Shown here: piece by piece, positions 317-40,428 of the stretch
How positions within the stretch are numbered: the stretch's first letter is position 1
How the letters are laid out: each line of letters starts with the position of its first letter
From: a virus
IMG/VR virus record: IMGVR_UViG_3300045988_044838
Coordinates: 1 to 41,339 of that record
DNA length: 41,339 nucleotides
Direction: 5' to 3' (one strand)
The notes under the pieces: generated by a model
Database searches by the model: none
Told to the model about the DNA's origin: nothing
The model's input: only the letters and a program-made list of their open reading frames with translations
Translations under genes and position numbers: made by a program

Positions 317-583
317 ATGACGAACGAAGAAAAGATTTTAGAATTACTGGAAGCGCAGGGAAAAAAGTTAGACACCGTATCGCAGGAAATTTCCAAAATC
401 AATCTGACGCTTGAAAATGAAATCCGTCCAAATATGCAGGCTATGGCTGAAAACATCTCCTCTATCAACAAGAAGTTAATTACCAGAGACGAGATTGACA
501 GCATGAAAGAAGAAATCGCTTTCCTCAAGGACATTATCCGTATGCACACTAACCAGATTAACGATCTCAAGAAAGCCCAATAA
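317..583 (+). CDS. Small coiled-coil protein, paralog B (function unknown)
   Basis: ATG follows AAGGAG. The 88-aa product has C-terminus HTNQINDLKKAQ, paralogous to 50..304. Confidence 0.7.
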   Translation: MTNEEKILELLEAQGKKLDTVSQEISKINLTLENEIRPNMQAMAENISSINKKLITRDEIDSMKEEIAFLKDIIRMHTNQINDLKKAQ

Positions 584-587
584 AAAC

Positions 588-612
588 CGCCGTCAGGTCT
601 CCCCTGGCGGCG
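588..612. other. GC-rich 10-bp stem-loop between the coiled-coil genes and int (attenuator or terminator, orientation ambiguous)
   Basis: CGCCGTCAGG / CCTGGCGGCG pairs perfectly with one G-U in plus sense but has no U-tail. In minus sense it has one mismatch but is followed by TTTTTATT. Confidence 0.35.
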
Positions 613-633
613 TACTCATAAGGGGGTGTCTTT

Positions 634-1710
634 TTGAACTGTATACGTTGCAAAGCGGAGCTCCCAGCGGGGGCTATATACTGTCCTGTCTGTGGGAAGA
701 AACAGAGTGGCACTCCCCCACGAAAAGCCCTGAAACGGGCCAATGGCACCGGAACAGTCTATAAGCTGTCCGGCCGTCGGCGCCGCCCATGGGTAGCCGC
801 CAAGAATAAAGTAATCATCGGATACTACGAGCGTAAGACAGACGCTATAGAAGCTCTGGAAAAACTGTCTGGTCGGGACTTGTCGGAGCGGTACAACATG
901 ACATTTGCTGAGGTATTCGAGATATGGAAAGCGGAGCATTATCAGGAAATCGGTGAAAAGGGCGTTGAGGGATATAACCGGGCCTTTGCTGTGTTCGCCC
1001 CGCTCCACGAGAAGAAATTCAGGGATCTGCGCACAGCAGATTTTCAGTCGGCCCTAGACCCACACATGAAAAAGTCGCACTCCACCGTGTCAAAGTACAA
1101 GCAACTGATTACGCAGATGTCCCAATGGGCTATCCGGGAGGAAATCTGCACCACCAACTTTGCCAAATTCGTCCGGCTCCCGGAAAACGTCAAAAAGGAA
1201 AAAGACATCTTTACAGATCAAGAAATCGCAAAACTGGAAGCTGATAACAGCGAAACGGCGAAAATCGTTCTCATGCTGATTTATACAGGTATGCGTATTG
1301 GAGAATTGTTCTCACTTCCTCTTGCGGACTACCACGGCACCTATGTCGTAGGCGGAGAAAAAACAGAGGCGGGGAGAAACCGCATCATCCCCATTCGGCC
1401 CGAGGGGCGTAGATGCTTTGCGTACTTCGCTCAGCAGGCAGACGGACCGCTGCTCCTGTCTGGATATACCGGACAGCACCGCCCGGAAAACTACCGAAAA
1501 CGGGATTACTACCCTCTGTTGAAAAAACTGGGCATTCCGCAGAAAAACCCACATTGCACTCGGCACACTTACGCCAGCTGGGCAAGAAAACAGGGCATGG
1601 CTCCGGAGACCTTGCAAAAAATCCTGGGCCATGCGGATTACAGCACCACAGCAAATATCTATGTACATACAGACGCAGATGAATTGATACAGGCAGTCGA
1701 GAATTGTTAG
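634..1710 (+). CDS. int: Tyrosine integrase (phage integrase family) with N-terminal zinc ribbon
   Basis: TTG start follows AAGGGGGTG. The N-terminus has CxxC...CxxC. The C-terminus HCTRHTYASW...LGHADYSTTANIYVH is the R-H-R-Y recombinase signature. attP lies immediately downstream. Confidence 0.92.
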   Translation: MNCIRCKAELPAGAIYCPVCGKKQSGTPPRKALKRANGTGTVYKLSGRRRRPWVAAKNKVIIGYYERKTDAIEALEKLSGRDLSERYNMTFAEVFEIWKAEHYQEIGEKGVEGYNRAFAVFAPLHEKKFRDLRTADFQSALDPHMKKSHSTVSKYKQLITQMSQWAIREEICTTNFAKFVRLPENVKKEKDIFTDQEIAKLEADNSETAKIVLMLIYTGMRIGELFSLPLADYHGTYVVGGEKTEAGRNRIIPIRPEGRRCFAYFAQQADGPLLLSGYTGQHRPENYRKRDYYPLLKKLGIPQKNPHCTRHTYASWARKQGMAPETLQKILGHADYSTTANIYVHTDADELIQAVENC

Positions 1711-1723
1711 AAATTTGTTAGTA
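1704..1723 (+). repeat. Candidate integrase arm-type sites (TTGTTAG x2, ATTTGTTAGTA), P arm
   Basis: TTGTTAG occurs at 1704-1710 and 1715-1721. The 11-mer ATTTGTTAGTA at 1713-1723 recurs at 1931-1941 on the other side of the core. Confidence 0.4.
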
Positions 1724-1830
1724 ACCGGAAAAAGTTTTTGAGATTTTTCTTCGATTGAAGTTTCAATTTTCCTTGAAATTGCTTGGTTTAACCTCTATAC
1801 ACCGTTTTGGAAAAGCATAGTATTATATTT

Positions 1831-1873
1831 CACACGCAGGAGGTCACTGGTTCGAGTCCAGTAGTCTCCACCA
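1831..1873 (+). other. attP core: 3' fragment of a tRNA or tmRNA gene (T-arm, acceptor 3' strand, CCA)
   Basis: The fragment has T-stem ACTGG, loop TTCGAGT, stem CCAGT, then AGTCTCC-A-CCA. No matching 5' acceptor strand (GGAGACT) lies upstream, so it is only a 3' fragment. It sits next to int. Confidence 0.75.
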
Positions 1874-1876
1874 AAG

Positions 1877-1916
1877 GAAACCCTAGAGCCGCAATGGTTC
1901 TAGGGTTTCTCTTTAT
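1877..1916 (+). terminator. Rho-independent terminator following the tRNA-like fragment
   Basis: GAAACCCTAGAGCC / GGTTCTAGGGTTTC forms a 14-bp stem with 1 mismatch and loop GCAAT, followed by TCTCTTTAT. Confidence 0.7.
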
Positions 1917-1930
1917 GTGCAAGATTTTGT

Positions 1931-1941
1931 ATTTGTTAGTA
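1931..1941 (+). repeat. Candidate integrase arm-type site (ATTTGTTAGTA), P' arm
   Basis: An exact 11-nt copy of 1713-1723, located on the opposite side of the tRNA-like core. Confidence 0.4.
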
Positions 1942-1955
1942 GCGTGTAAGTAACA

Positions 1956-2297
1956 TCACAATCCTCTAATCTTCCGCATTACCCCATTATATACTCTCGG
2001 ATTAGCAACCTGGAGCGTGTCCATCAAGTCATCCATAATGCCCCATACCTGCTCCTCGTTTCTCCCTTCAATCTCCCGGAGAAATTCACTGTCTCCGTAT
2101 CTTCCGACCTCTGGAGGCATTTCAGCCGGAGCCGCAGAATAGGCTTGCTCATAGGAGCGATTTTGCATCTCTGGTTCTTGTTTATTCATTTGATTTTTGA
2201 TGGTGTACAAGGTTGCCAATTTAGCGTATGCGGGATAGCTGCTCTCGCCGTACTCCAGACGAGCAATCTCAATGTCGATCTCTTTGGGGTCTAGCAT
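1956..2297 (-). CDS. Hypothetical protein (accessory cluster next to attP)
   Basis: ORF-track frame 1956..2306. The ATG at 2297 follows AGGGGGTG. No domain recognised. Confidence 0.6.
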   Translation of the reverse strand: MLDPKEIDIEIARLEYGESSYPAYAKLATLYTIKNQMNKQEPEMQNRSYEQAYSAAPAEMPPEVGRYGDSEFLREIEGRNEEQVWGIMDDLMDTLQVANPRVYNGVMRKIRGL

Positions 2298-2312
2298 AGG
2301 GGGCACCCCCTA

Positions 2313-2711
2313 TCAATCCCGACCCAGTTCGGACATAAAGCGGCGAATGGCGTCGCGCTCCCTCTCAGTAGTAGCGTTATCCATCATCTCCTGAGCCTGC
2401 TCCATCATAGCCTCTTTGGAGTCGTGGCGACTGTATCCACCCATGCGCCCATCCCGGCTATAACGTCCCATGGAGTCCCGCTTCCGGCCACGGTAGCTGG
2501 AGCCGCGGGCATAAGTGCCGCGCATATCAGCCTCCCAATCCCCGGCCCGGCTGTATCCACCGTCCTCTTCCAACATTGCGATCTTGTCGATGTTCTTGAT
2601 GGTGTCGGTCAGCTTGTGAGCAGCTTCAAGGTCCCCGGCAGACATCTCCGGCTTGCGGGCGATCTCCTCCAACTCTTCGCAGAGCTTTTCTTTCAGTTCG
2701 TGCATATACAT
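2313..2711 (-). CDS. Hypothetical protein with R/G/Y/S-rich centre
   Basis: ATG at 2711 follows GAAAGGAGAG. It has GGYSR-type low-complexity repeats. No domain recognised. Confidence 0.6.
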   Translation of the reverse strand: MYMHELKEKLCEELEEIARKPEMSAGDLEAAHKLTDTIKNIDKIAMLEEDGGYSRAGDWEADMRGTYARGSSYRGRKRDSMGRYSRDGRMGGYSRHDSKEAMMEQAQEMMDNATTERERDAIRRFMSELGRD

Positions 2712-2724
2712 GTTGACTCTCCTT

Positions 2725-3147
2725 TCAAGCCACGCGCTCAACGATCAGGTTAGCATTTTCAACCTCAATCGTCTCCGCGCTGGTATTTTTGACTGCCACA
2801 GTCACGCAGCAGCCACGGGGGACCTCAATAAAGGCCGCAGCAAACACGTTGAAAAACTCGTCCACCGAGGCAGGGGTCACAATAGCAGTAGCGCTGCCCA
2901 GTGCCTCTCCCTCCACAGCGATGGCAACGGAGATAGGGCCTACCGCGCCGCCGGTGGGAATTGCAATGTTGCTGCCGAAAACCACTTTATAGCGGGCGCG
3001 GCACTGATTCGTCATTCCACGCAGGGTAACGATGCCGGAGCCGTCACGGTGCACGACGCAATTAGACCCGCTGACAGGCGTCTCCGTAAAGACCACGTTC
3101 TGATTAGCGGCTACCTGCTGGACAAATACTCCAGTAAATTCAGCCAT
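2725..3147 (-). CDS. Hypothetical beta-rich protein, possibly a BclA-C-terminal/C1q-like jelly-roll
   Basis: ATG at 3147 follows AAAGGA. The small-residue-rich sequence with alternating beta-like pattern resembles BclA-CTD-type domains. This is a weak similarity recalled from memory. Confidence 0.5.
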   Translation of the reverse strand: MAEFTGVFVQQVAANQNVVFTETPVSGSNCVVHRDGSGIVTLRGMTNQCRARYKVVFGSNIAIPTGGAVGPISVAIAVEGEALGSATAIVTPASVDEFFNVFAAAFIEVPRGCCVTVAVKNTSAETIEVENANLIVERVA

Positions 3148-3162
3148 AAACTTCATTCCTTT

Positions 3163-3196
3163 CAAAAAGATAGCGGCGAGGCTGTTGCCCCGCCGC
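3163..3196 (-). terminator. Rho-independent terminator after the Gly/Cys-rich membrane protein gene
   Basis: In minus sense, GCGGCGGGG-CAACAG-CCTCGCCGC is followed by TATCTTTTT. Confidence 0.6.
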
Positions 3197-3259
3197 ATGG
3201 TTCAAAATCGGCACGGGGCCGAACATGTAAGCCTTTCTTACAAGTTGATGTATTGGATT

Positions 3260-3997
3260 TTAGCAGCCGCAGCCGCAGGGGTTGCAGCCACATCCGGCAT
3301 AAGGATTGGGCACCTGATAGGCCGGGACGGGCATGGGGTTGATGCGGCGAATCAGTTCAGCGGTCTGCGCCTCCTGATTGGCGCTGAAGAAAGCGTTCTG
3401 CGCCGCCTGAGAAGCCTGGAACTTCAGGCTCTGGTTTTCAGCCGTCAGAGTAGCGATCTTATCCTGGGTCAGGAAGTCCAGGATCGCGCGGCTGTTGGCA
3501 TTGGCGTTGTCGATGATGTCGCGGGTGCTGGACTGGATGGTGTTGCGGGTATCGCAAGCCTGAGTAGCCATGTCGTACCGGACACCGTCAATGCTCCGCT
3601 GAGTATCGCAGCAGCACTGCGCCAGCTGGGCGCCGAGGGCGTTAAAGCCCGCCTGCGTCTGATAGCCCAGGTTGCACACAGCGGTATCCACGCCATGGAA
3701 GCCGTTGCTCACGGCATCCCGGATGGAGGTCTGGCCGTTCTGGAGGCCGTTCAGGGCGAAGCCCTCGTTGATGTCGGCCCTGGTGGCCCAGCCCTGACCA
3801 GAGGGAGAACCCAGGCCATTGCCGGAGTTACCACCCCAGCCGCCGCCATAGCCGCCCCAGCCGAACATACCGAAGATCAGGAACAGGATAATCCAGGAGG
3901 CCCAATCGCCGCCCCAACCGCCGAAACCGCCGTTTCCGCCCTGATAGGCAGGAGTCACGGGCATGGTCATCACAGCGCCGTCAGAAGAAAGACTCAT
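3260..3997 (-). CDS. Glycine-rich membrane protein with C-terminal GCGCNPCGCGC tail (unknown function)
   Basis: AAAGGAGA lies upstream of the ATG. GGW/GGY low-complexity runs flank one hydrophobic helix (WIILFLIFGMFGW). There is a CCC motif and a Cys/Gly C-terminus. The gene has an AT-rich upstream region and its own terminator. Confidence 0.7.
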   Translation of the reverse strand: MSLSSDGAVMTMPVTPAYQGGNGGFGGWGGDWASWIILFLIFGMFGWGGYGGGWGGNSGNGLGSPSGQGWATRADINEGFALNGLQNGQTSIRDAVSNGFHGVDTAVCNLGYQTQAGFNALGAQLAQCCCDTQRSIDGVRYDMATQACDTRNTIQSSTRDIIDNANANSRAILDFLTQDKIATLTAENQSLKFQASQAAQNAFFSANQEAQTAELIRRINPMPVPAYQVPNPYAGCGCNPCGCGC

Positions 3998-4205
3998 TGT
4001 GTTATCTCCTTTGTAGATTTATTTTCAAAACCCGGCCGGGATTTTGAGACTAGATTAAAACCAAATTGAAACTAAGTCACAAAAGATTGCAACTATAGTT
4101 GGCATATTTCTCTTGCGATTTGAAGAAGGGAAAGCGTTTTCTTAACTTTTTTATTTAGATTCTGAACTCTAAACTTACTTTATAGCTTTAGAGAGTAGTT
4201 TAGAC

Positions 4206-4427
4206 TTACTTCCCAAACATCCCCCGCATCCCCTCAAACATGCCCTGCATCTGCTGGGCCTGCTTTTGGACTTGGTTGAGCTGATCTTGAGAAATGCGGC
4301 CAGAGGATACCATTTCTTGTATCATGGCGTTAGGGTCCTTCCCCTTCATCTGGTTCATGAACTGCTGAAACTGCTGCATCATGTTGGGCTGTCTGTTGCC
4401 GCCCATCGCCTGGAAAAAGGGATTCAT
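4206..4427 (-). CDS. Small Q/M-rich protein (unknown)
   Basis: 73-aa ORF. Its start overlaps the stop of 4424..4831 (ATGA coupling). Confidence 0.6.
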   Translation of the reverse strand: MNPFFQAMGGNRQPNMMQQFQQFMNQMKGKDPNAMIQEMVSSGRISQDQLNQVQKQAQQMQGMFEGMRGMFGK

Positions 4428-4831
4428 TCCGTATCCTCCTTATCTTTTGCCGCCAGCGCATCCAGGCGGGCCTCCAGGGCCTCCAGACGAGACAGGGGCG
4501 CATACTCTACCGCCGGAGCCTGTGGGGCCTGTACGGGCCTCTGATTGCGCTCTACGAGGTCATATATCTTCATGCTGGGCTTGCCGCTTGCGTCCGCCTG
4601 TTTGAGATAGACCACTGGAGAGTTGCTGTCCCATAACGTAACGGCGGAGTTTGGAGCGACTAGATAATTAGCCGCCTCCATCTCGCTCTGCACCCACACA
4701 ATAGACGGAGACGCCGGGGCTTGCTGCGGCTGCTGCATGGGTTGATAGGACTGCCGCAGCTGCGTCAGCTGGTCCGCCATAGGCGGCTGATACGGTTGGT
4801 ACGGCTGATAGTAATAGGGATAGTTAGGCAT
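4424..4831 (-). CDS. Hypothetical protein with N-terminal YQP repeats
   Basis: The ATG is preceded by GAAAGGA. The N-terminus is PYYYQPYQPYQPP. The rest looks globular. Confidence 0.65.
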   Translation of the reverse strand: MPNYPYYYQPYQPYQPPMADQLTQLRQSYQPMQQPQQAPASPSIVWVQSEMEAANYLVAPNSAVTLWDSNSPVVYLKQADASGKPSMKIYDLVERNQRPVQAPQAPAVEYAPLSRLEALEARLDALAAKDKEDTE

Positions 4832-4837
4832 CTCACG

Positions 4838-5200
4838 TCATCCTTTCTGCCAGTAGTACAGCACAGTTTCGTGTTCACTGTGCCATGTATCGTAGATCAC
4901 ACCATCCTGCAGGCATACCACATGACCGGACAGGGCCAGAATGTAAGTCCCGTTTGGATGCCCCATCGCAAACTCCGCCACGGTCATGTCCTCGGGTGCC
5001 ATGTCACGCTGAAAGCCATGCCGTCGGAGATAAGCCCCCCATGTGGCGTTTGCGCTGGGCATATCGCCTCTCACAGCTCCCTCAATGCAGAGGCCAAGGT
5101 ATGTCCTGTACCAGTCCTGCTCCAGCGCCTTCGAGATGGCCCGGACGGTACAATCCCCCACATTTTTTTCGTAGGGGTTCGGATTGTAAAATTCAAACAT
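4838..5200 (-). CDS. Hypothetical Cys...His protein (possible papain-like peptidase fold)
   Basis: The conserved-looking part starts at MFEFYNPNPYEKNVGDCTVRAISKA and has a later GHVVCL..DTWHS motif. The N-terminal 51 aa of track ORF 4838..5353 look like out-of-frame junk (W/P/R-rich). Confidence 0.6.
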   Translation of the reverse strand: MFEFYNPNPYEKNVGDCTVRAISKALEQDWYRTYLGLCIEGAVRGDMPSANATWGAYLRRHGFQRDMAPEDMTVAEFAMGHPNGTYILALSGHVVCLQDGVIYDTWHSEHETVLYYWQKG

Positions 5201-5363
5201 ATTGCTTTCGGTCATCATACAAAAGCTCGTTCTGCCGGATAAACCCTTCAAGGCCGGAGAAGTCTCCCTCCGCCGCATACTTCTCGCAGGTGTCTCTTGC
5301 TGTGGACTCCGTGAAGCCGCAGGCCACCAGCCGGGCCACCAGTTCTGAACCATTCAGAATCAA
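5193..5363 (-). CDS. Small helical protein (56 aa), TTG start; not in the ORF track
   Basis: The alternative frame reads LILNGSELVARLVACGFTESTARDTCEKYAAEGDFSGLEGFIRQNELLYDDRKQYV. Its stop overlaps the ATG at 5200 (ATGTTTGA coupling). Confidence 0.4.
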   Translation of the reverse strand: MILNGSELVARLVACGFTESTARDTCEKYAAEGDFSGLEGFIRQNELLYDDRKQYV

Positions 5364-5462
5364 CTTAAAACACGTCCTTATATAAAAGATCAGAAGGCCG
5401 CAAGGAGGGCGGCGACGTGTACCAGCCCTTGTCCCTTACGTCCTCCTGATGATATTTTTGCA

Positions 5463-5500: not shown

Positions 5501-5508
5501 AGGTGAAG

Positions 5509-5757: not shown

Positions 5758-5761
5758 AGTT

Positions 5762-35357: not shown

Positions 35358-35952
35358 AGTATTCTCTGATGGCCTTGTCAACTGCGGCAAGGTCATTCTC
35401 GATCAACGGCTCGCTGAACATCCCCATAGGTGTTTTCACTGTGTCCTGTCCGCTGTTCCTGGTGGAGAACTGATATTTTCCATCAGTGACTACAGTTTTC
35501 AGGACAATGGTAAACATCCCTTCTAAAGTGATTTTCTCGTCCAGCAGCTTCCCGATGGTTTTGAACTTCTCGTTTCCGTTGCTGTCAATGTCGCTGTGCC
35601 CCATGAAATACACGATCTTATCATCAGGCAGAGCGGCAGCAGTCTTTACCAGGGTGTAGTAGTTCAGCGCGAGCTCTGTGAACTTCTGGTAGCCGGTCAC
35701 TTTGGCCGTTCTCATGTACTCACCTGTCATTAGGTAGGTCGCGTCGTCAATAACGATGGACTTTGCCGGGGCTTTCTGAATAGCCGCCTCAATGGATATA
35801 TAGTCATCTGTGTTGAAGGTCTTGTGCTTGTTCTTGAACGGCAGTGGCTTGCCGGAAACATTCACGATACACACATCTTCCGGCTTGAAATTCCGCAAGC
35901 TGGTGCTTTTTCCGGTGCCGGACTGCCCGTACACCATAACGATGATTGCCAT
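35347..35952 (-). CDS. Sak4-like / AAA_24 ATPase (recombination or annealing associated)
   Basis: It has Walker A GQSGTGKS near the N-terminus and a Walker B-like IVIDD. Confidence 0.7.
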   Translation of the reverse strand: MAIIVMVYGQSGTGKSTSLRNFKPEDVCIVNVSGKPLPFKNKHKTFNTDDYISIEAAIQKAPAKSIVIDDATYLMTGEYMRTAKVTGYQKFTELALNYYTLVKTAAALPDDKIVYFMGHSDIDSNGNEKFKTIGKLLDEKITLEGMFTIVLKTVVTDGKYQFSTRNSGQDTVKTPMGMFSEPLIENDLAAVDKAIREYYEI

Positions 35953-36171
35953 TTAATCCATTCCTCCCGAAATATCTTTCAGCGATCTGTCCGCCAATTG
36001 GAGGATGATCCTCGCCTCCTGGTAGCTGACAGAATAGCTGGAATTTGCAATCAGAGAGACGATTTTGGAGGCGGTTTTGATGAAGTTTGACGCTTGGTCC
36101 AATGTCACGTAATAGCCAAGCTGGTCTCTGATCCGCTCCTGCTCTTCTCTGAAAGCCTCCGCCCTGTTCAT
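35953..36171 (-). CDS. Hypothetical protein
   Basis: 72-aa ORF, coupled to its neighbours. Confidence 0.55.
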   Translation of the reverse strand: MNRAEAFREEQERIRDQLGYYVTLDQASNFIKTASKIVSLIANSSYSVSYQEARIILQLADRSLKDISGGMD

Positions 36172-36371
36172 GCTCCCCTTCCCTCCATGTAATAGACCGG
36201 AATCCCTGCAACTTCCTCAAGCTGCTCTCTGAGCTCATCAAACCGTTCTTCCAGTTCATCCACCAAAAAATCCTTTTCGCAGTGCTGGCAGTAAATTTCA
36301 CCGCAAATCACAGAATAGCGATCCCCAGGCCGTATTTCTGCGTCGCACTGACTGCATTTTGGATATTTCAC
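36168..36371 (-). CDS. Small zinc-finger protein
   Basis: It contains CSQC...CQHC. Confidence 0.55.
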   Translation of the reverse strand: MKYPKCSQCDAEIRPGDRYSVICGEIYCQHCEKDFLVDELEERFDELREQLEEVAGIPVYYMEGRGA

Positions 36372-36566
36372 CTATTGTCTCCCTCCATTCCAGACTCTCG
36401 CCGCATGGTTGATATCAGTAAATTTCCGAGTTCGCCATCCGCAGGCGTCGCAGGCCACCAGGAACATATCCGGGTTGCCCTCGATTGCCAATCGCTGGCC
36501 GGAATATAGTCCGCATCTTGGGCACGGTCCCAACTCGCCTCTGGGGCGTTTAGCGTTTGCGTTCAT
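36372..36566 (-). CDS. Lar-family restriction-alleviation-like protein
   Basis: It contains PCPRCG...CDACGW...INHAARVWNGG. Confidence 0.6.
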   Translation of the reverse strand: MNANAKRPRGELGPCPRCGLYSGQRLAIEGNPDMFLVACDACGWRTRKFTDINHAARVWNGGRQ

Positions 36567-37150
36567 TCCTCACACCACCAAATGTCTGCCGTCTGGACGC
36601 CCAGGGATAAGGCAAAATCGTGGGTAGGGACTGCAATATCAATATGGTCCCCCTTGACTGCCGGACCGGTATCATCGGCTCTCAGATAAACCATCTCGCC
36701 GTTGTACTCGATCATGATGGTGCTGCCCAGCGGTATAATATCAGGGTCCACGGCGCAGCTCACATACGGAGTCACGCGCCGTCCGCTGGCGGTGATGCCT
36801 GTCCCAGTCCCGCAGATGTGAGGCCGTTCCTCGCAACAATAAAAGGTGATGGTGGCACCTTCCAGCTTGTGAGACCGGGCCAGCAAAGCAGCTTCTATAA
36901 GCTCATTCTCGTTTTCCTCGATCTCTTCTTCTGTCAGATAACAGCGAGTGGTGGCCGGAGTATCGTCGCCGGGGAGACTTCCGTCCTCTTTGGCTGCCTC
37001 CGGCTCGTGCATGGCCAGCCGCTCCGCCTCCACGGTCATAATCAGGTAGCTTCCCAGCCACGCCAGCAACAAGATCAGAAACAGGAGATATGTAATCAGC
37101 TGCCGCCTCTGGCTCCAGCGCCGCCGCTCTTCCCGTGTCAGTTTCTTCAC
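36563..37150 (-). CDS. Membrane-anchored 3D-domain protein (MltA/RlpA-like DPBB cell-wall-binding or lytic fold)
   Basis: It has a transmembrane helix LITYLLFLILLLAWLGSYLI. AVDPDIIPLGSTIMIEY...ADDTGPAVKGDHIDIAV carries the three-Asp (3D) signature. The GTG at 37150 after GGAGGGAG is preferred over the ATG at 37189. Confidence 0.7.
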   Translation of the reverse strand: MKKLTREERRRWSQRRQLITYLLFLILLLAWLGSYLIMTVEAERLAMHEPEAAKEDGSLPGDDTPATTRCYLTEEEIEENENELIEAALLARSHKLEGATITFYCCEERPHICGTGTGITASGRRVTPYVSCAVDPDIIPLGSTIMIEYNGEMVYLRADDTGPAVKGDHIDIAVPTHDFALSLGVQTADIWWCEE

Positions 37151-37247
37151 CGCTCTCCCTCCATCCAGGAAAGGAAGCGCATGAACCATCCGGCAACCTT
37201 GACTGTTCCGATGATGGTGATTACCACCCCTATACCCATTTCAAAGC

Positions 37248-37460
37248 TCATGCGCTCACCGTTCTTTCCGCGATCCAGCGATCCAGCAAAGCCTTATAGA
37301 TATAACACCATTTGACTTTCTTGCCGTCCTCGGCCATTACGCAGTCCCCGAACGGGAAGACTTTCTTTTGGATGCCATCCCGGATAGTCTCCGGAGTAAT
37401 ACGCAGCCCCGCATTGCGAAGGACTTCTGTTGCTTCGGCTGCCGTCAATGCTTCAATCAT
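37248..37460 (-). CDS. Small HTH protein (excisionase/MerR-like)
   Basis: The ATG at 37460 follows AAGGAGG. The 70-aa product contains LTAAEATEVLRNAGLRITPETIRDGI. Confidence 0.6.
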   Translation of the reverse strand: MIEALTAAEATEVLRNAGLRITPETIRDGIQKKVFPFGDCVMAEDGKKVKWCYIYKALLDRWIAERTVSA

Positions 37461-37471
37461 AAAAAACCTCC

Positions 37472-37500
37472 TTGATTTCTCCCTCTGGAGGCGATATACT
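37472..37500 (+). promoter_or_regulatory. Sigma-70-type promoter for antisense sRNA A
   Basis: TTGATT - 17 nt - TATACT. Confidence 0.55.
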
Positions 37501-37506
37501 GTATCC

Positions 37507-37576
37507 AAAGGGATTGTTCGTGGTTGCTCAATCCTTGCCCGTCTGACTGCCGGTAACGGTCAGGCGGGATTTTTTA
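37507..37576 (+). ncRNA. Candidate antisense small RNA A (~70 nt)
   Basis: It starts downstream of the promoter at 37472-37500. It has two hairpins: GGGATTG/CAATCCT, and the terminator CCCGTCTGAC/GTCAGGCGGG followed by ATTTTTT. The G-U pairs form only in plus sense. Confidence 0.5.
37538..37576 (+). terminator. Plus-strand intrinsic terminator (sRNA A)
   Basis: A 10-bp stem with one G-U, followed by ATTTTTT. In minus sense it has a C-A mismatch and no U-tail. Confidence 0.6.
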
Positions 37577-37837
37577 CACATCTTCCGGGTACGCAACGGA
37601 AACCAGCTCTTTCAGTTCCATCAAGTCGATGCCGGGATCATGTGCCGCCCGGTCCAGAATCAGCTCCTTCAACTTGGGGCCAGCGCCTTCCAGTGCCTTG
37701 CGGTAATCTTCAAATGTGTAATCCATGTGGGCCTCCTCCCATGTGCGGCCCTTCCAGGCGAGACAGAGATTGTCCATAAGACGATTGGTGTTCCTTGCCT
37801 GCCTTTCAAGGGCTTGAATGCTGTCTTTTTCGTTCAT
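37574..37837 (-). CDS. Hypothetical early protein
   Basis: ATG follows AAGGAGG. 87 aa. Confidence 0.65.
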   Translation of the reverse strand: MNEKDSIQALERQARNTNRLMDNLCLAWKGRTWEEAHMDYTFEDYRKALEGAGPKLKELILDRAAHDPGIDLMELKELVSVAYPEDV

Positions 37838-37847
37838 AAAAACCTCC

Positions 37848-37876
37848 TTGTCATTTGACCCGGAGGCGTGTATAAT
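37848..37876 (+). promoter_or_regulatory. Sigma-70-type promoter for antisense sRNA B
   Basis: TTGTCA - 17 nt - TATAAT. Confidence 0.65.
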
Positions 37877-37882
37877 AACCTC

Positions 37883-37966
37883 GCGGGCCTGTTGGCACTA
37901 TCAATAGGTCTCCGCAGCCCTCGTCAGTGTTTCCGGCACTGGCGGGGGCGTTTCTTATTTGCTTTT
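37883..37966 (+). ncRNA. Candidate antisense small RNA B (~80 nt)
   Basis: It has hairpin CCTGTTG/CAATAGG and a 13-bp terminator stem at 37917-37929/37937-37949 with two G-U pairs, followed by TTTCTTATTTGCTTTT. It overlaps the stop codon of the Cro-like gene in antisense. Confidence 0.55.
37917..37966 (+). terminator. Plus-strand intrinsic terminator (sRNA B)
   Basis: A 13-bp stem that is perfect only in plus sense (two G-U pairs become A-C in minus sense), followed by a U-rich tail. Confidence 0.65.
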
Positions 37967-38140
37967 CAGGCGTTCTAAAGCCTCGTTTAGCTTCTGCTCT
38001 GCGCCCTTCGGCTCTTTGTGGCCGTTAAGCACGACACTGAGATACTTTGGGTTCCAGCCGACCTCCGCTGCGAGTTGCTTGGCCGTTACTCCGGCCAAAT
38101 GCATCTCACCCAGCAGATCAGCAGTCCACTTTGCTGGCAT
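37955..38140 (-). CDS. Cro-like small HTH protein (first clear early gene)
   Basis: The ATG at 38140 follows AGAAGGAGGAA. The 61-aa product contains VTAKQLAAEVGWNPKYLSVVLNG. Confidence 0.7.
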   Translation of the reverse strand: MPAKWTADLLGEMHLAGVTAKQLAAEVGWNPKYLSVVLNGHKEPKGAEQKLNEALERLKSK

Positions 38141-38156
38141 ATGATTCCTCCTTCTG

Positions 38157-38185
38157 TTGATTACTATGGTTAATTCTGGTACAAT
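38157..38185 (+). promoter_or_regulatory. Strong sigma-70-type promoter with extended -10
   Basis: TTGATT - 17 nt - TACAAT, preceded by TGG. It is followed by GAGGTGA and the GTG at 38205. Confidence 0.6.
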
Positions 38186-38204
38186 CACCGTTGAGGTGAT
38201 ATTT

Positions 38205-38570
38205 GTGCTTGATAATCGTTCTTATAAATTGCTGAAAAGGTTTTACCGAAAGAAAAAGTTGAAGTTTGAACAGATACAGAAAATCACGGAGCATGATGAA
38301 AGCAAAAAACCAAGTAAATACATATCCTCTTTGACTACAAGCCATTTCATCACATATTGGAACACGGATGAAATCATAAACGATGTCGGAGACACGAAGC
38401 AGGAAGGGTACTGTATTACGCTGGATGGAGAAGCCTATGTAGAGCAGCGCAGACGAGATAGAAAAATGTTCTGGGTTCCATACCTTATTACCACCGCTAT
38501 TGCACTACTAAGCCTCATTACTTCTCTGGCAGAGCATTGGGAAACGATCAGCAATCTTTTCTGCGGCTAA
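38205..38570 (+). CDS. AT-rich gene for a C-terminally membrane-anchored protein (prophage-expressed accessory candidate)
   Basis: The GTG at 38205 follows GAGGTGA. The C-terminal helix is FWVPYLITTAIALLSLITSLA. The upstream part of track ORF 38157.. is occupied by the promoter. Confidence 0.6.
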   Translation: MLDNRSYKLLKRFYRKKKLKFEQIQKITEHDESKKPSKYISSLTTSHFITYWNTDEIINDVGDTKQEGYCITLDGEAYVEQRRRDRKMFWVPYLITTAIALLSLITSLAEHWETISNLFCG

Positions 38571-38808
38571 AGTTCTCGCAATTCGTACTTATATCGCATC
38601 CAATTATTTGGCTTTGCTCAAACGGTAATTCTACTGAAACCGCATGAACACATGCTTTACAAATTACTCCCTTGCATTTGGCAAGTCCGCTTTCTTCTGG
38701 AAGTTGATTTTTGCGGCGCTCAATTTCAAGTTCTCTTTCAAGGCTAAAAATTCGCTTCTTCAATGCCTTTTTTGTCTGAAACAATTTTTCACCCCCATCC
38801 CTTGCCAT
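38548..38808 (-). CDS. Hypothetical ORF (weak)
   Basis: 86-aa track ORF with no RBS at the ATG. An in-frame TTG at 38784 follows GGGGGTGA. It is convergent with, and overlaps, 38205..38570. Confidence 0.35.
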   Translation of the reverse strand: MARDGGEKLFQTKKALKKRIFSLERELEIERRKNQLPEESGLAKCKGVICKACVHAVSVELPFEQSQIIGCDISTNCENFSRRKDC

Positions 38809-38856
38809 ATTTTTCTGATATAAACCGCTAGATTTAGATCACCTCCAAAACCTGTC

Positions 38857-38873
38857 CTTGCTTTTTGGGCAAG
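38857..38873. promoter_or_regulatory. Operator-like palindrome TTGC-N9-GCAA
   Basis: CTTGCTTTTTGGGCAAG overlaps the -10 of the candidate minus-strand promoter. The same TTGC-N9-GCAA pattern recurs at 39005-39021. Confidence 0.3.
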
Positions 38874-38900
38874 AATACAAAAGTTGTCTTTTTACTGCAA
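38872..38900 (-). promoter_or_regulatory. Candidate leftward (early) promoter
   Basis: In minus sense it reads TTGCAG - 17 nt - TATTCT, back-to-back with the repressor promoter. Confidence 0.3.
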
Positions 38901-38905
38901 AAGCG

Positions 38906-38934
38906 TTGACTTAGGTTATCTTTCGTGATACTAT
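38906..38934 (+). promoter_or_regulatory. Candidate repressor promoter
   Basis: TTGACT - 17 nt - TACTAT with an upstream TG (extended -10). Confidence 0.5.
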
Positions 38935-39004
38935 GTGTTTGCCGACAAATAGAACAGAAAGATGACTTAAGTTGCTCCATGAACTTATTATACGATAACC
39001 ATGG

Positions 39005-39021
39005 TTGCCTGTCAATGGCAA
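39005..39021. promoter_or_regulatory. Operator-like palindrome TTGC-N9-GCAA
   Basis: TTGCCTGTCAATGGCAA lies in the repressor leader. Confidence 0.3.
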
Positions 39022-39074
39022 AAAGCAACTTCAGTGGCTTTCTATGTTTTATACAAACTAGGAGGTTGCTTTTC

Positions 39075-39443
39075 GTGTTTTTTGATAGGTTTGAAAGTTT
39101 GTGCAAGCAAAAGGGTGTTTCTAAACAAAAGGCTTGTATAGACTGTGGGCTGAGCCGTACCGCTTGGAACAAATGGAAAGCGGGAGCCATCCCTAACGGA
39201 GATGCAATACAATCTCTTGCCGATTATTTTGGCGTCACTACTGATTACCTCTTGACCGGCGAAGAAACAAAAAAAGCGCCCACCTCGGAAGGTGAGCGTG
39301 AAGTTACTGACCGTCAAATCAAAGCTGCATTTTTCCATGGCGCTGATATGACTGACGAAGAGATGGACGCCGCCTGGGAAGATGTTATGGATTTAAGGGA
39401 TATTGTTATAAGAAAAAGAAAGCGTGATGCAGGTGGTAAATAG
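39075..39443 (+). CDS. XRE-family repressor (ImmR/CI-like)
   Basis: The GTG at 39075 follows AGGAGG. The HTH is KQKACIDCGLSRTAWNKWKAGAIPNGDAIQSLADYFGVTTDYLL. It is followed by an ImmA-like gene. Confidence 0.85.
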   Translation: MFFDRFESLCKQKGVSKQKACIDCGLSRTAWNKWKAGAIPNGDAIQSLADYFGVTTDYLLTGEETKKAPTSEGEREVTDRQIKAAFFHGADMTDEEMDAAWEDVMDLRDIVIRKRKRDAGGK

Positions 39444-39867
39444 CCCGCTGCAACTCTATCAAGAAGCTAACGATGCTGGAATTGATATAATTTGGATGCC
39501 TCTGCGGATAGATCAGTCTTTAGCGACCCAGTTTGATGATGGCTCCTTCGCTATTGGAATTGATCCCTGGAAGATGGATACTATTGCAAAGGAAATTGTT
39601 TGCTTGGGACATGAACTAGGGCACTGCAATACAGGGAGTTTTTATAACCGCTGGGCAACTTGCGATATTCGGAAGAAACACGAAAACCGTGCCGACAAGT
39701 GGGCAATTGAACGCCTTGTTCCGCTGGAAGATTTTGACCAGGCAATAGCTGATGGATATGATAACATTCCGGACCTAGCGGATTATTTCAATGTAACAGA
39801 AGATTTTATGCGGAAAGCAGTGTGCTTCTATATACACGGGAATCTAGCAGCTGAGTTATATTTTTAG
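39427..39867 (+). CDS. ImmA/IrrE-family zinc metallopeptidase (anti-repressor protease)
   Basis: It has the HEXXH motif (GHELGHC) and a typical length. It overlaps the repressor stop. Confidence 0.85.
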   Translation: MQVVNSPLQLYQEANDAGIDIIWMPLRIDQSLATQFDDGSFAIGIDPWKMDTIAKEIVCLGHELGHCNTGSFYNRWATCDIRKKHENRADKWAIERLVPLEDFDQAIADGYDNIPDLADYFNVTEDFMRKAVCFYIHGNLAAELYF

Positions 39868-39879
39868 AGGTAGTGCGAT

Positions 39880-40428
39880 ATGGCTTTGATTAAATGCAAG
39901 GAATGCGGAAAGGAAATATCAGATCAAGCCCAAACATGCCCCAATTGTGGATACCCAATAAACATAAAGGATCGGGATGGTGTGCTCCATTTTTATTGGG
40001 CGAATATGAGAGGAAATACGTTTCTAAAAACGAAAATAGTCATTGATGGCGTATCTTTCGGGGAAATAAAATGCGGACATTCCATAGATATAAGCGTAGA
40101 TGTTGGGGCACATACGGTAGAACTTTACTTTAGAGATAAAATTGCTATAAGCGAAACCGTAGATGTAACTGGATCGCATCTTGATGAGTATTTTGCATTT
40201 AAACAAACTGTTACATCAATCAAACGTATTCCAGCTTCATCAATAAAAAATTGGAAACAAAACAATAAATTAGGGGATGCCAATATACCAAAGTGCCCCA
40301 CTTGTGGAAGCACCAACATTTCAAAAATATCAATGAACAGGAAAATACTCTCTGTTGGAATGATAGGCCTTGCCAGCACTTCTGCTGGAAAAACTTTTAG
40401 ATGCAAGAATTGCGGATATATGTGGTAA
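39880..40428 (+). CDS. Double zinc-ribbon protein (unknown function)
   Basis: The N-terminus has CKECG...CPNCG and the C-terminus has CPTCG...CKNCG. RBS GAGGTAG lies upstream. Confidence 0.7.
   Translation: MALIKCKECGKEISDQAQTCPNCGYPINIKDRDGVLHFYWANMRGNTFLKTKIVIDGVSFGEIKCGHSIDISVDVGAHTVELYFRDKIAISETVDVTGSHLDEYFAFKQTVTSIKRIPASSIKNWKQNNKLGDANIPKCPTCGSTNISKISMNRKILSVGMIGLASTSAGKTFRCKNCGYMW

What the first reader, a model, noticed from the sequence alone, without database searches (positions are those of the whole stretch)
583..39880. AT-rich accessory island between repressor/ImmA and integrase: candidate superinfection-immunity or defence cassette
Five co-oriented genes sit in the classical prophage-expressed slot, reading through the artificial window junction (39880..41220, then 50..583). 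They encode a double zinc-ribbon protein, a stand-alone S24 peptidase domain, a zinc-ribbon/TM2 membrane protein and two paralogous ~85-aa coiled-coil proteins that share the C-terminus H-T-x-Q-I-N-[ED]-L-K-K-A-Q. The block is visibly AT-richer than the rest of the genome, which suggests horizontal acquisition. None matches a defence system I can name. The mix of a membrane protein, a protease-like domain and small coiled-coils resembles abortive-infection or exclusion modules.
Basis: inference. Interest (0 to 1): 0.62.

Follow-up and report, generated by a model that had tools for sequence, protein, structure and literature searches.

The report
Prophage cargo slot, not one cassette
The five genes are real and sit in the part of a gut-bacterium virus that is probably read while the virus lies dormant, but related viruses keep, drop and reorder them independently, so this is an ordinary swap-in slot for accessory genes (some relatives carry known anti-virus genes there) and not one new five-gene defence system.

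Summary
Observation confirmed. The window is a complete circular or terminally repeated temperate phage of Oscillospiraceae; bases 41221-41339 repeat 1-119. The five co-oriented genes have the stated domains. The block has 38.8% G+C against 52.3% (sd 4.6) for the rest of the genome.

Interpretation partly supported. The genes lie in one plus-strand lysogeny operon: XRE repressor, ImmA protease, five genes, integrase. They are not a co-inherited unit.
- Across 36 distinct coiled-coil (CC) variants, a TM2 gene is nearby in 7, the S24 gene in 5 and the double-ribbon gene in 0.
- Across 34 TM2 variants, CC is nearby in 4.
- A close relative carries the genes in a different order.
- The S24 and CC genes diverge in step with the repressor and protease, and they bracket a variable slot.
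- In relatives that slot holds lipoproteins, PD-Lambda-1/SNIPE (a known defence nuclease), PDC-S48-like exonucleases and an Mrr-like nuclease.

So the slot is a real accessory and defence hotspot. This phage's occupants match no known system (PADLOC found nothing). The S24 protein lacks a cleavage site, and its catalytic Ser is Asp in 4 of 10 family clusters. CC belongs to a large unnamed family (about 1,000 clusters at 50% identity).

This scan has flagged stand-alone S24 genes and zinc-ribbon/TM2 genes before, in other genomes.

The parts
41221..41339 (.). Terminal direct repeat, identical to window 1-119. It marks the circular or terminally repeated junction that the island spans.
   Evidence: Sequence identity. 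Self-match of 119 bases at 100% identity, and IMG/VR classes the ends as 'direct terminal repeats'.
38906..38934 (+). Promoter-like site (TTGACT, 17-nt spacer, TACTAT, with an extended -10 TG) upstream of the repressor gene. It is the candidate start of the plus-strand lysogeny transcript.
   Evidence: Consensus scan. This is a prediction only. A second, better match (10 of 12) lies at 39734-39762 inside the 3' end of immA, 118 nt before the island.
39075..39443 (+). XRE-type helix-turn-helix repressor (122 aa from the GTG at 39075; the open frame begins at 38925).
   Evidence: Pfam HTH_31, HTH_3 and HTH_19 at weak scores; PHROG 8, 2e-17; NCBIfam phage_RstR, 1.1e-8. The ortholog in L285 (74% identical) starts at the equivalent Val.
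39424..39867 (+). ImmA/IrrE-type metalloprotease with an HELGH motif, partner of the repressor.
   Evidence: Pfam Peptidase_M78, 3.4e-5. PHROG 87 metallo-protease, 2.9e-25.
39880..40428 (+). Cargo gene 1. A soluble 182-aa protein with an N-terminal zinc ribbon, a central beta-sandwich and a C-terminal zinc ribbon (CPTCGS...FGLAS...CKNCGYMW).
   Evidence: Pfam. 745 homologs, with conserved ribbons and a swappable middle. The AlphaFold2 model has pLDDT 78.6 with strands over residues 33-117; the best BFVD hit is a DUF4352 protein at 3e-8. No membrane helix. G+C 0.373. In L277 it lies after TM2 and an Mrr-like gene, not before S24.
40490..40822 (+). Stand-alone S24 (LexA/CI/UmuD') core domain of 110 aa, with no DNA-binding domain and no self-cleavage site. 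It is a frame gene that normally follows the repressor module directly.
   Evidence: Pfam S24, profile positions 30-115 only. HMMER aligns S34 and K70 with the LexA catalytic Ser and Lys. The Ser column reads S, D or T across 10 clusters, while K70 is invariant. Contexts.
40807..41220 (+). Cargo gene 2. An N-terminal zinc ribbon, an Asn/Thr-rich linker and a TM2 two-helix membrane domain. The likely true start is 40843 (125 aa).
   Evidence: Pfam TM2, 5.5e-18. Membrane helices at residues 82-100 and 101-134. SD sequence GGAGGGG before 40843. 115 relatives in viral contigs, mostly without CC, S24 or this integrase nearby. G+C 0.360.
50..304 (+). CC_A. An acidic 84-aa protein of two helices with a conserved N-terminus (MLDEKDLQAIAQLM) and C-terminus (HTxQINELKKAQ). 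It is a frame gene just upstream of the integrase. The gene also begins at 41270 in the terminal repeat.
   Evidence: PHROG 33872, 1e-13. 146 viral-contig relatives; 1,039 clusters at 50% identity in the profile search. AlphaFold2: helices 4-47 and 53-83, pLDDT 91.8. Synonymous variation at the conserved end codons. K+R 10 against D+E 18.
317..583 (+). CC_B. An 88-aa tandem paralog of CC_A that shares the C-terminal motif but lacks the N-terminal motif. It is present in only some close relatives.
   Evidence: BLASTP 34% identity, E 1e-10. PHROG 33872, 6.5e-11. Present in L003, L004, L005, L007 and L014; absent in L006, L008-L011 and L277.
588..612 (.). GC-rich hairpin with a 10-bp stem right after CC_B. 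It has an A-run before it and no T-run after it on the plus strand. It therefore looks like a terminator for minus-strand transcripts, and at most a leaky one for the lysogeny transcript. It is conserved after CC genes in relatives.
   Evidence: Fold of -23.4 kcal/mol, z = -3.1; the minus-strand version is followed by UUUUUAUU. The same hairpin follows CC in L006, L008, L009, L011 and L013.
634..1710 (+). Tyrosine integrase with an N-terminal zinc ribbon and a TTG start. It is the last gene of the lysogeny module.
   Evidence: Pfam Phage_integrase, 4e-15, and Zn_Ribbon_1 at residues 3-23. PHROG 1, 1.9e-49. Copies 95-100% identical occur in L123-L127 directly after a TM2 gene, with no CC gene.

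Best explanation
The region is the plus-strand lysogeny operon of a temperate Oscillospiraceae phage: repressor (XRE), its protease (ImmA), five small genes, then the integrase.

The five genes are not one machine. Two of them are conserved frame genes of this operon type: the stand-alone S24 domain just after the repressor module, and the CC gene or genes just before the integrase. Between them lies a slot where accessory genes (morons) are swapped in and out by recombination.

In this phage the slot, slightly widened, holds two such cargo genes. One is the soluble double-ribbon beta-sandwich protein. The other is the zinc-ribbon/TM2 membrane protein.

Inferred, not shown:
- The operon is read from the repressor promoter in the lysogen, so all five proteins are made in the dormant state.
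- The TM2 membrane protein is the best candidate for a single-gene block on entry of other phages (superinfection exclusion).
- The S24 protein acts as a binding or regulatory domain, not as a self-cleaving protease.
- The CC proteins act through coiled-coil protein-protein contacts. They are not needed by the integrase.
For: Operon layout.
- All genes are co-oriented, with gaps of 12 to 61 nt.
- No plus-strand terminator-like site is predicted from 38925 to 583.
- The rest of the genome is on the minus strand.

Independent assortment (counted over distinct protein variants of the anchoring gene in viral contigs).
- 36 CC variants: TM2 nearby in 7, S24 in 5, the double-ribbon gene in 0.
- 34 TM2 variants: CC nearby in 4, S24 in 3.

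Natural presence and absence among near-identical phages.
- L008 has S24, CC_A and Int only.
- L005 has TM2, CC_A, CC_B and Int with no S24.
- L010 adds a 207-aa lipoprotein and lacks CC_B.
- L123-L127 have TM2 followed directly by a 95-100% identical integrase, with no CC.

Order change. L277 runs S24, TM2, a 35-aa ORF, an Mrr-like gene, the double-ribbon gene, CC, Int.

Frame genes diverge in step with the repressor and protease.
- L285: XRE 74%, ImmA 75%, S24 76%, CC 74%, with a different cargo (a lipoprotein) and a different integrase at 34%.
- L288: XRE, ImmA, S24, PD-Lambda-1/SNIPE, TM2.
- L058 and the cultured Flavonifractor phage Castelnaud have XRE, ImmA, (cargo), CC, Int.

Composition agrees. 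Cargo genes have G+C 0.36-0.37. S24, CC_A, XRE and ImmA have 0.44-0.45.

The slot is a hotspot. Relatives carry PD-Lambda-1 (3.4e-160), PDC-S48 (1e-41 and 1e-44), an Mrr-like nuclease, an HSDR_N protein and lipoproteins there.

CC genes are textbook morons elsewhere. They lie on the opposite strand inside tail modules, with their own TATAAT about 20 nt upstream and a hairpin terminator.

The TM2 gene recurs between the repressor and tyrosine or serine recombinases, and also between the tail chaperone and tape-measure genes.

Precedent. Phage TP-J34 has the order int, ltp, metalloproteinase, cI, with ltp transcribed in the prophage (PMC3952083).
Against: - Promoter and terminator calls are consensus matches at about chance density.
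- S24 and TM2 are adjacent in 5 of 6 S24 variants from viral contigs, so a functional pair is not excluded.
- Locus retrieval relied on short peptide patterns and tblastn with window proteins. Distant homologs of partner genes may have been missed, and close relatives are over-sampled.
- My ORF calling in the fetched loci was naive.
- The functions assigned to the individual proteins rest on position and fold only.
Confidence: 0.7

Rival explanations
1. All five genes form one dedicated multi-gene defence or abortive-infection system: sensor, protease, membrane effector and coiled-coil adaptors.
For: - The genes are co-oriented and tightly packed in the prophage-expressed slot.
- The mix of a membrane protein with soluble proteins resembles Rex-like layouts.
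- The homologous slot holds defence genes in relatives.
Against: - The components assort independently, and the double-ribbon gene accompanies none of the 36 CC variants in viral contigs.
- Gene order differs in a close relative.
- Near-identical phages lack one to three of the five genes.
- There are no PADLOC hits.
Confidence: 0.04
2. The S24 orphan and the membrane gene that follows it form a two-gene module, analogous to lambda cI-rexA-rexB. The S24 domain would be the sensor, for example of RecA filaments or a phage protein, and the membrane protein would be the effector.
For: - S24 is followed by TM2 in 5 of 6 viral-contig variants.
- A 53%-identical homolog is followed by a bPH/SHOCT protein.
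- Both genes sit just downstream of the repressor.
Against: - L008 has S24 followed directly by CC, with no membrane gene.
- In L285, S24 is followed by a lipoprotein. In L288, PD-Lambda-1 separates S24 from TM2.
- 31 of 34 TM2 variants have no S24 nearby.
- With the likely TM2 start at 40843, the two genes do not overlap.
Confidence: 0.1
3. The CC proteins are integrase accessory factors, either a directionality factor (excisionase-like) or regulators of int expression. That would explain why they sit immediately upstream of integrases of many lineages.
For: - CC lies directly upstream of, and co-oriented with, tyrosine integrases that are only 23-100% identical to one another, in 20 of 36 variants.
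- A conserved hairpin sits between CC and int.
Against: - Integrases 95-100% identical to this one occur without any CC gene (L123-L127).
- CC also occurs as a promoter-plus-terminator moron inside tail modules, away from int.
- CC_A is acidic (10 K+R against 18 D+E) and all-helical coiled coil, unlike the basic DNA-binding excisionases.
- Phage Castelnaud has a separately annotated excisionase in its early operon.
- In bacterial genomes, few of the 76 CC loci (about 10) have any integrase hit, and only about 5 have one immediately downstream and co-oriented.
Confidence: 0.1
4. The S24 protein is the detached C-terminal half of a split CI-type repressor, or a UmuD'/HumD-like mutagenesis subunit.
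For: - It is homologous to the LexA/CI/UmuD core, with PHROG matches to the repressor C-terminal part and to a UmuD-like protein.
- Like UmuD' and phage P1 HumD, it lacks the N-terminal cleavage segment. HumD reference: McLenigan et al. 1999, cited in PMC4713147.
Against: - It also follows a complete HTH+S24 CI repressor in L196-L200 and is only 30% identical to that repressor's own domain.
- The phage already has an ImmA-type switch.
- The S24 allele does not track the repressor type.
- The phage genome has no Y-family polymerase.
- The Ser position is not conserved.
Confidence: 0.06

Closest known systems
Lysogeny module of Streptococcus thermophilus phage TP-J34 (int, ltp, metalloproteinase, cI), with the exclusion lipoprotein Ltp as a moron (PMC3952083)
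   Same: - Same gene order logic: a repressor, an ImmA-like metalloprotease, one or more accessory genes, then the integrase, all on the strand opposite to the lytic genes.
- The accessory gene is envelope-located.
- It is regarded as a horizontally acquired moron and is expressed from the prophage.
   Different: - No sequence relation to Ltp; Pfam reported no Ltp-type family for any protein here.
- The envelope protein here is a zinc-ribbon/TM2 membrane protein, not a lipoprotein.
- The slot here holds several genes and is bracketed by two extra conserved genes (S24 orphan and CC).
- Expression and exclusion are untested here.
Lambda cI-rexA-rexB and other prophage-expressed exclusion genes next to the repressor (my own knowledge; the P22 sie genes are described in PMC10883804)
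   Same: Accessory genes are co-transcribed with the repressor, and they include a membrane protein.
   Different: - No homology.
- The components here are not co-inherited.
- There is no evidence of a sensor-effector relation.
C-terminal S24 domain of LexA, CI and UmuD; the pre-truncated phage P1 HumD (UmuD'-like)
   Same: - Same fold family (Pfam 34.1 bits).
- The Lys is conserved.
- Like UmuD' and HumD, the protein lacks the cleavable N-terminal segment and any DNA-binding domain.
   Different: - The Ser nucleophile position varies (S, D or T) within the family.
- There is no partner polymerase in the phage.
- It is located in the lysogeny operon right after the repressor module.
PD-Lambda-1/SNIPE, PDC-S48 and Mrr-like nucleases (PADLOC; SNIPE in bioRxiv 10.1101/2025.11.03.685801)
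   Same: They occupy the homologous slot in related phages (L288, L038, L067, L277).
   Different: They are not present in this window, and none of the five window proteins resembles them.
Zinc-ribbon/DUF4352 and other zinc-ribbon membrane proteins of Firmicutes prophages
   Same: - The N-terminal CxxC...CxxC ribbon is followed by a variable module.
- The double-ribbon protein's middle domain is a beta-sandwich whose best structural match is a phage DUF4352 protein (3e-8).
- A zinc-ribbon/DUF4352 gene accompanies CC in tail-module morons.
   Different: - The 182-aa protein has no membrane helix and carries a second, C-terminal ribbon.
- The function of all these proteins is unknown.

Membership tests
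Peptidase S24 (LexA/CI/UmuD self-cleaving proteins) | Homologous catalytic-core beta-barrel | tested here: met
   Pfam PF00717, 34.1 bits against a 23.3-bit cut-off, profile positions 30-115. PDB LexA C-terminal domains match at 8e-4.
Peptidase S24 (LexA/CI/UmuD self-cleaving proteins) | Ser nucleophile and Lys general base conserved | tested here: inconclusive
   The window protein has S34 and K70 aligned to the LexA dyad. Across 10 family clusters the Ser column reads S, D or T (Asp in 4), while K70 is invariant.
Peptidase S24 (LexA/CI/UmuD self-cleaving proteins) | Ala-Gly or Cys-Gly self-cleavage site N-terminal to the core | tested here: not met
   Profile positions 1-29 are not matched. 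There is no AG or CG dipeptide in residues 1-27 (sequence).
Peptidase S24 (LexA/CI/UmuD self-cleaving proteins) | N-terminal DNA-binding domain (for the repressor members) | tested here: not met
   The protein is 110 aa and the S24 core alone fills residues 21-103. No HTH was reported.
UmuD'/HumD-type mutagenesis subunit | Partner Y-family polymerase (UmuC-like) encoded alongside | tested here: not met
   No PF00817 (IMS) match in the complete phage genome; the control genomes did match. The host genome was not examined.
TM2 domain proteins (PF05154) | Pair of membrane helices joined by a short linker, matching the family profile | tested here: met
   65.4 bits against a 27.9-bit cut-off. Hydrophobic segments at residues 82-100 and 101-134. 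The function of the family is unknown (PMC3581485).
Known anti-phage defence systems (PADLOC-DB 2.0) | Significant match of any component to a system model | tested here: not met
   No hit below E = 0.01 for any of the five proteins. DefenseFinder was not available.
Multi-gene defence system (general criterion) | Components co-occur and keep their order across unrelated elements | tested here: not met
   Co-occurrence counts, mosaic relatives and a changed order in L277.
Moron (accessory gene inserted in a prophage) | Present or absent among otherwise near-identical phages | tested here: met
   TM2, CC_B, the double-ribbon gene and S24 are each missing in some relatives that share integrases and flanking genes at 95-100% identity.
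Moron (accessory gene inserted in a prophage) | Own promoter and terminator | tested here: inconclusive
   This is clear for CC genes inside tail modules: a TATAAT about 20 nt upstream and a hairpin with a T-run downstream. Within the window there are only consensus-level promoter matches (39734-39762 and 41194-41223) and no internal terminators.
Moron (accessory gene inserted in a prophage) | Base composition deviating from the host phage | tested here: met
   G+C is 0.36-0.37 for the double-ribbon and TM2 genes, against 0.523 (sd 0.046) for the backbone and about 0.44 for neighbouring lysogeny genes.
Superinfection-exclusion proteins of Gram-positive temperate phages (Ltp/Sie2009 type) | Encoded in the lysogeny module between the repressor/metalloprotease and the integrase | tested here: met
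   Window layout. TP-J34 precedent (PMC3952083).
Superinfection-exclusion proteins of Gram-positive temperate phages (Ltp/Sie2009 type) | Membrane-anchored or surface-exposed | tested here: met
   Met only by the TM2 protein. The other four proteins are soluble.
Superinfection-exclusion proteins of Gram-positive temperate phages (Ltp/Sie2009 type) | [quoted passage not shown] | not testable with these tools
A phage-challenge test needs bench work.
Excisionase / recombination directionality factor (considered for CC) | Small basic DNA-binding protein required by the cognate integrase | tested here: not met
   CC_A is acidic and is a two-helix coiled coil. Integrases 95-100% identical to the window's occur without CC. 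Castelnaud has a separately annotated excisionase.

The most novel reading that the evidence does not exclude
At least one of the two conserved frame genes is itself a new kind of lysogen-expressed phage-phage conflict or switch protein.

The more attractive candidate is CC. It belongs to an unnamed family of about 1,000 clusters, almost all in Oscillospiraceae phages and prophages. It travels as a self-contained promoter-gene-terminator moron, including next to tape-measure genes. It could be a single-gene, soluble, acidic coiled-coil exclusion factor, for example one that traps an incoming phage protein such as the basic tape-measure protein, much as Ltp does from outside the membrane.

Alternatively, the cleavage-site-free S24 domain could be a sensor or decoy that couples RecA or SOS signals to ImmA-type switches.
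Probability: 0.12. Interest if true: 0.65.

Novelty: new member of a known kind. Interest (0 to 1): 0.36.

Why it matters
Gut Oscillospiraceae (Flavonifractor, Oscillibacter, Dysosmobacter) are abundant, and their phages are little studied.

- **A place to look for new defence genes.** The analysis defines the layout of their lysogeny operon: repressor, ImmA, S24 orphan, variable slot, CC, integrase. The variable slot carries validated defence genes in some relatives. This gives a cheap positional rule for mining new single-gene defence or exclusion candidates. The TM2 protein, the double-ribbon protein and several lipoproteins are the first ones.
- **Two uncharacterised families to test.** The CC family and the cleavage-site-free S24 orphan are conserved parts of the dormant-state programme. 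A cultured system exists for testing them: prophage Castelnaud in F. plautii YL31.
- **What it does not show.** It is not a new multi-gene defence system.

Tried and rejected

2. Known-family searches for the five proteins.
- PADLOC found nothing.
- NCBIfam gave nothing useful.
- For CC, Pfam gave only sub-threshold coiled-coil noise.

3. Structure-based leads.
- The CC_A model gave no Foldseek hit in the PDB. The CC profile matched only GCN4-type coiled coils in PDB sequences.
- The double-ribbon model gave only generic beta-sandwich matches in the PDB (best E 4e-3) and a DUF4352 protein in BFVD.

4. CC has an obligate upstream partner: rejected. The upstream neighbour varies widely: TM2, lipoproteins, S24, zinc-ribbon/DUF4352, DEDDh exonuclease, ImmA or XRE.

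5. CC is an excisionase: rejected (see the rival explanations).

6. S24 is half of a split repressor, or co-evolves with the repressor: rejected. It also follows a complete CI repressor. The IDESL and IGPDL alleles both occur with the same XRE type.

7. The conserved CC termini reflect a DNA or RNA element: rejected. Synonymous codons vary freely at those positions.

8. The window ORF at 37248-37508 (minus strand) is a recognisable excisionase: no Pfam support, so it was not used.

9. Literature on TM2 function in phages: none found. Pfam-based literature calls the function unknown (PMC3581485).

10. Neighbour tally of CC genes in 58 bacterial-genome loci. The neighbours were heterogeneous, including many housekeeping genes, and gave no clear functional association.

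Full report
**What the window is.** The 41,339-base window is a complete IMG/VR virus record. Its last 119 bases repeat its first 119. The finding's reading across the junction is therefore legitimate, and CC_A simply starts in the repeat (41270 = 50). Nearly all genes lie on the minus strand. The exception is a plus-strand block from about 38,900 through the junction to 1,710. The nearest cultured phages are Flavonifractor plautii phages. CC-family genes occur almost only in Oscillospiraceae genomes (Oscillibacter, Dysosmobacter, Flavonifractor, Lawsonibacter).

**Checking the observation.** ORF listing and Pfam, PHROG and PADLOC scans confirm each statement.
- The 182-aa protein has a zinc ribbon at each end.
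- The 110-aa protein consists of an S24 core only (profile positions 30-115 of 116).
- The third protein has a zinc ribbon plus a TM2 domain (5.5e-18) and two hydrophobic helices.
- Two small paralogs are 34% identical (E 1e-10), both match PHROG 33872, and they share a C-terminal motif.
- The block has G+C 0.388. None of 357 backbone windows of 400 nt is as low (mean 0.523, sd 0.046).
- PADLOC finds nothing.

Two refinements apply. First, the TM2 gene most likely starts at 40843, behind a GGAGGGG site, so it does not overlap the S24 gene; a gene caller made the same choice in relative L277. Second, AT-richness is a property of the whole lysogeny module. XRE, ImmA, S24 and CC_A all sit at 0.44-0.45. 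Only the double-ribbon gene (0.373), the TM2 gene (0.360) and CC_B (0.390) go lower.

**Surroundings.** Upstream lie an XRE repressor (39075-39443) and an ImmA/IrrE metalloprotease (39424-39867). Downstream lies a tyrosine integrase with an N-terminal zinc ribbon (634-1710). A promoter-like site precedes the repressor (38906-38934), and a better one lies inside the end of immA (39734-39762). No plus-strand terminator-like site is predicted until after CC_B. These are consensus matches only. By sequence, the simplest reading is one lysogeny transcript: XRE, ImmA, five genes, then possibly int.

**Do the five genes travel together?** I fetched loci around relatives of each protein and mapped all window proteins onto them. 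The counts below use distinct variants of the anchoring protein.
- 36 CC variants have TM2 nearby in 7, S24 in 5, the double-ribbon gene in 0, and an integrase in 20.
- 34 TM2 variants have CC nearby in 4 and S24 in 3.
- The 6 S24 variants all have CC and Int, and 5 have TM2. These six are all close relatives of the window.

Near-identical phages differ by whole genes.
- L008 has S24, CC_A and Int.
- L005 has TM2, CC_A, CC_B and Int.
- L006, L010 and L011 insert a 207-aa lipoprotein and lack CC_B.
- L123-L127 have TM2 followed directly by a 95-100% identical integrase, with no CC at all.
- In L277, a 41-kb relative, the order is S24, TM2, a 35-aa ORF, an Mrr-like nuclease, the double-ribbon gene (83% identical), CC and Int. 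There the double-ribbon gene sits at the other end of the slot.
- In L280 a 52%-identical double-ribbon gene follows XRE and ImmA in a phage with none of the other four genes.

This pattern is what independent accessory genes show. It is not what a multi-component system shows.

**Frame genes and cargo.** Two of the five genes behave differently from the rest.

In L285 the identities are XRE 74%, ImmA 75%, S24 76% and CC 74%. The gene between S24 and CC is an unrelated lipoprotein, and the integrase is only 34% identical. In L288 the order is XRE, ImmA, S24 (64%), a 413-aa protein, then zinc-ribbon/TM2. That 413-aa protein matches PD-Lambda-1 at 3.4e-160 in PADLOC and the Pfam SNIPE/T5orf172 families. 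SNIPE is a membrane-bound nuclease that cuts phage DNA during injection (bioRxiv 10.1101/2025.11.03.685801).

In more distant phages, CC is again the last gene before the integrase. The genes ahead of it vary.
- XRE and ImmA alone (L058).
- A 245-aa unknown protein (L041).
- A DEDDh exonuclease with a BRCT domain that matches the PADLOC candidate PDC-S48 at 1e-44 and 1e-41 (L038, L067).
- An HSDR_N protein (L039).
- A DUF4236 protein (L061).

The cultured prophage Castelnaud of F. plautii YL31 has a DNA-binding protein, a metalloprotease, a 29-aa ORF, a 172-aa protein, CC (39% identical) and the integrase (PMC10197239).

A 53%-identical S24 orphan follows a complete CI repressor (HTH plus its own S24 domain with an AG site) and precedes a bPH/SHOCT protein.

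The recurring layout is therefore: repressor module, S24 orphan (in one sub-lineage), variable cargo, CC, integrase. The G+C values agree with this split. In the window, the double-ribbon gene has been inserted between ImmA and S24, and the TM2 gene sits between S24 and CC.

**The individual proteins.**

*S24 orphan.* HMMER aligns IDESL and HVKK with the catalytic Ser and Lys of LexA. In 3 of 7 close orthologs, and in 4 of 10 family clusters, the motif is IGPDL or IEPDL, with Asp in place of Ser; one cluster has Thr. Lys70 is invariant. The N-terminal cleavage segment is absent. Differences between the two main alleles cluster in residues 12-42, while the rest of the protein is nearly identical. 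The allele does not follow the repressor type. The phage has no Y-family polymerase. I conclude it is a CI-C-terminal-domain/UmuD'-like binding module. It is not a self-processing protease, and its partner is unknown.

*TM2 protein.* It has a cytoplasmic ribbon, a low-complexity linker and two membrane helices. Relatives sit after XRE (with or without ImmA) and before tyrosine or large serine recombinases, or between the tail chaperone and tape-measure genes. This is the distribution expected of a lysogen-expressed membrane moron. The function of the TM2 domain is unknown (PMC3581485).

*Double-ribbon protein.* The family has 745 members. The N-terminal ribbon is conserved, and so is a distinctive C-terminal ribbon (CPTCGS...FGLAS...CKNCGYKW). 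The middle is interchangeable. Here the middle is a beta-sandwich (pLDDT 78.6), and its best structural match is a phage DUF4352 protein. There is no membrane helix.

*CC.* The profile search found 1,039 clusters at 50% identity (393 at E <= 1e-10). All are 70-170 aa and span the whole profile. None has a name. The ends MLDEKDLQAIAQLM and H[ST]xEIxELKKAQ are conserved despite free synonymous change, so selection acts on the protein. The middle varies in length. AlphaFold2 gives two helices (4-47 and 53-83, pLDDT 91.8), and there are no Foldseek hits. The protein is acidic.

In several phages CC is an opposite-strand gene inside the tail module. There it has its own TATAAT and a hairpin terminator, and it sits next to tape-measure or Gp15 genes, sometimes with a zinc-ribbon/DUF4352 membrane protein. 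One phage contig carries one copy there and another copy beside its integrase (L013 and L026).

**How it most likely works.**

Shown:
- The layout of the operon.
- Independent assortment of the genes.
- The frame-plus-slot structure.
- Known defence genes in the homologous slot of relatives.

Inferred:
- The operon is read in the lysogen, as in TP-J34, where ltp lies between the metalloproteinase gene and int and is transcribed from the prophage (PMC3952083).
- Each gene acts on its own.
- TM2 is the best exclusion candidate because it is the only membrane protein.
- S24 and CC are regulatory or interaction proteins of the dormant state.

I give this overall model a probability of 0.7. The rival models and their probabilities are:
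- a single five-gene system: about 0.04;
- an S24-plus-membrane-protein pair: about 0.10;
- CC as an integrase cofactor: about 0.10;
- S24 as a split repressor or UmuD' analog: about 0.06.

**Limits.**
- Locus retrieval depended on short peptide patterns and favours close relatives.
- My ORF calls in the fetched loci are naive.
- Promoter and terminator scans found sites at about the density expected by chance.
- DefenseFinder was not available.

**Novelty and score.** A prophage lysogeny module with a variable accessory and defence slot is a well-known kind of feature. This is a new example from poorly studied gut phages, with unannotated occupants. Earlier notes of this scan had already flagged stand-alone S24 genes in other prophages (e1-3143275, e1-143151, e1-128998, e1-128155) and zinc-ribbon/TM2 genes (e1-732519, e1-1886041, e1-3236301). 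Their conclusions that such genes are optional and swappable agree with what I find here. The most interesting residue is the pair of conserved frame genes, above all the large unnamed CC family. Interest: 0.36.

Noticed in passing
window 588-612 (and after CC genes in L006, L008, L009, L011, L013): The conserved GC-rich hairpin between CC_B and int has an A-run before it and no T-run after it on the plus strand. On the minus strand it is followed by UUUUUAUU. It looks like a terminator for minus-strand transcripts that read through attP and antisense int, for example late-operon read-through on the circular genome. That would make int expression depend on the state of the genome, as with lambda sib.
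   Followed up: partly
window 40523-40615 (S24 residues 12-42); L003, L006, L007: The S24 orphan exists as two alleles that differ at 13 of 31 residues around the former active-site loop (IDESL against IGPDL). The remaining 68 residues are nearly identical. This looks like a recombined or diversifying patch. The alleles do not track the repressor type.
   Followed up: partly
window 634-705; L130 6337-7473: The tyrosine integrase carries an N-terminal CxxC...CxxC zinc ribbon and starts with TTG. A distantly related integrase in L130 has the same kind of ribbon. Four proteins in this 3-kb stretch begin with such a ribbon.
   Followed up: no
alignment A5 (relatives of window 39880-40428): The double-ribbon family keeps both terminal ribbons but swaps the middle module. 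Close relatives have a beta-sandwich there. More distant ones have a helical segment that gets Ribosomal_L12-type Pfam hits. This suggests a clamp-like scaffold that carries variable inserts.
   Followed up: no
L288 1704-3436: A PD-Lambda-1/SNIPE nuclease gene is followed directly by a zinc-ribbon/TM2 gene in a relative's slot. It is unclear whether the TM2 protein cooperates with membrane-bound defence nucleases or is merely a neighbour.
   Followed up: no
L003 3-254 (minus strand); L123 2498-3163 (minus strand): Related phages encode a pentapeptide-repeat protein (ANLSG/ANLSR repeats, about 220 aa) in the early region. The window phage has no such gene.
   Followed up: partly
L013 and L026 (same contig, IMGVR_UViG_3300045988_074092): One phage genome carries two diverged CC genes at different sites. 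One lies next to the integrase and the other inside the tail module. This parallels the tandem pair in the window.
   Followed up: no
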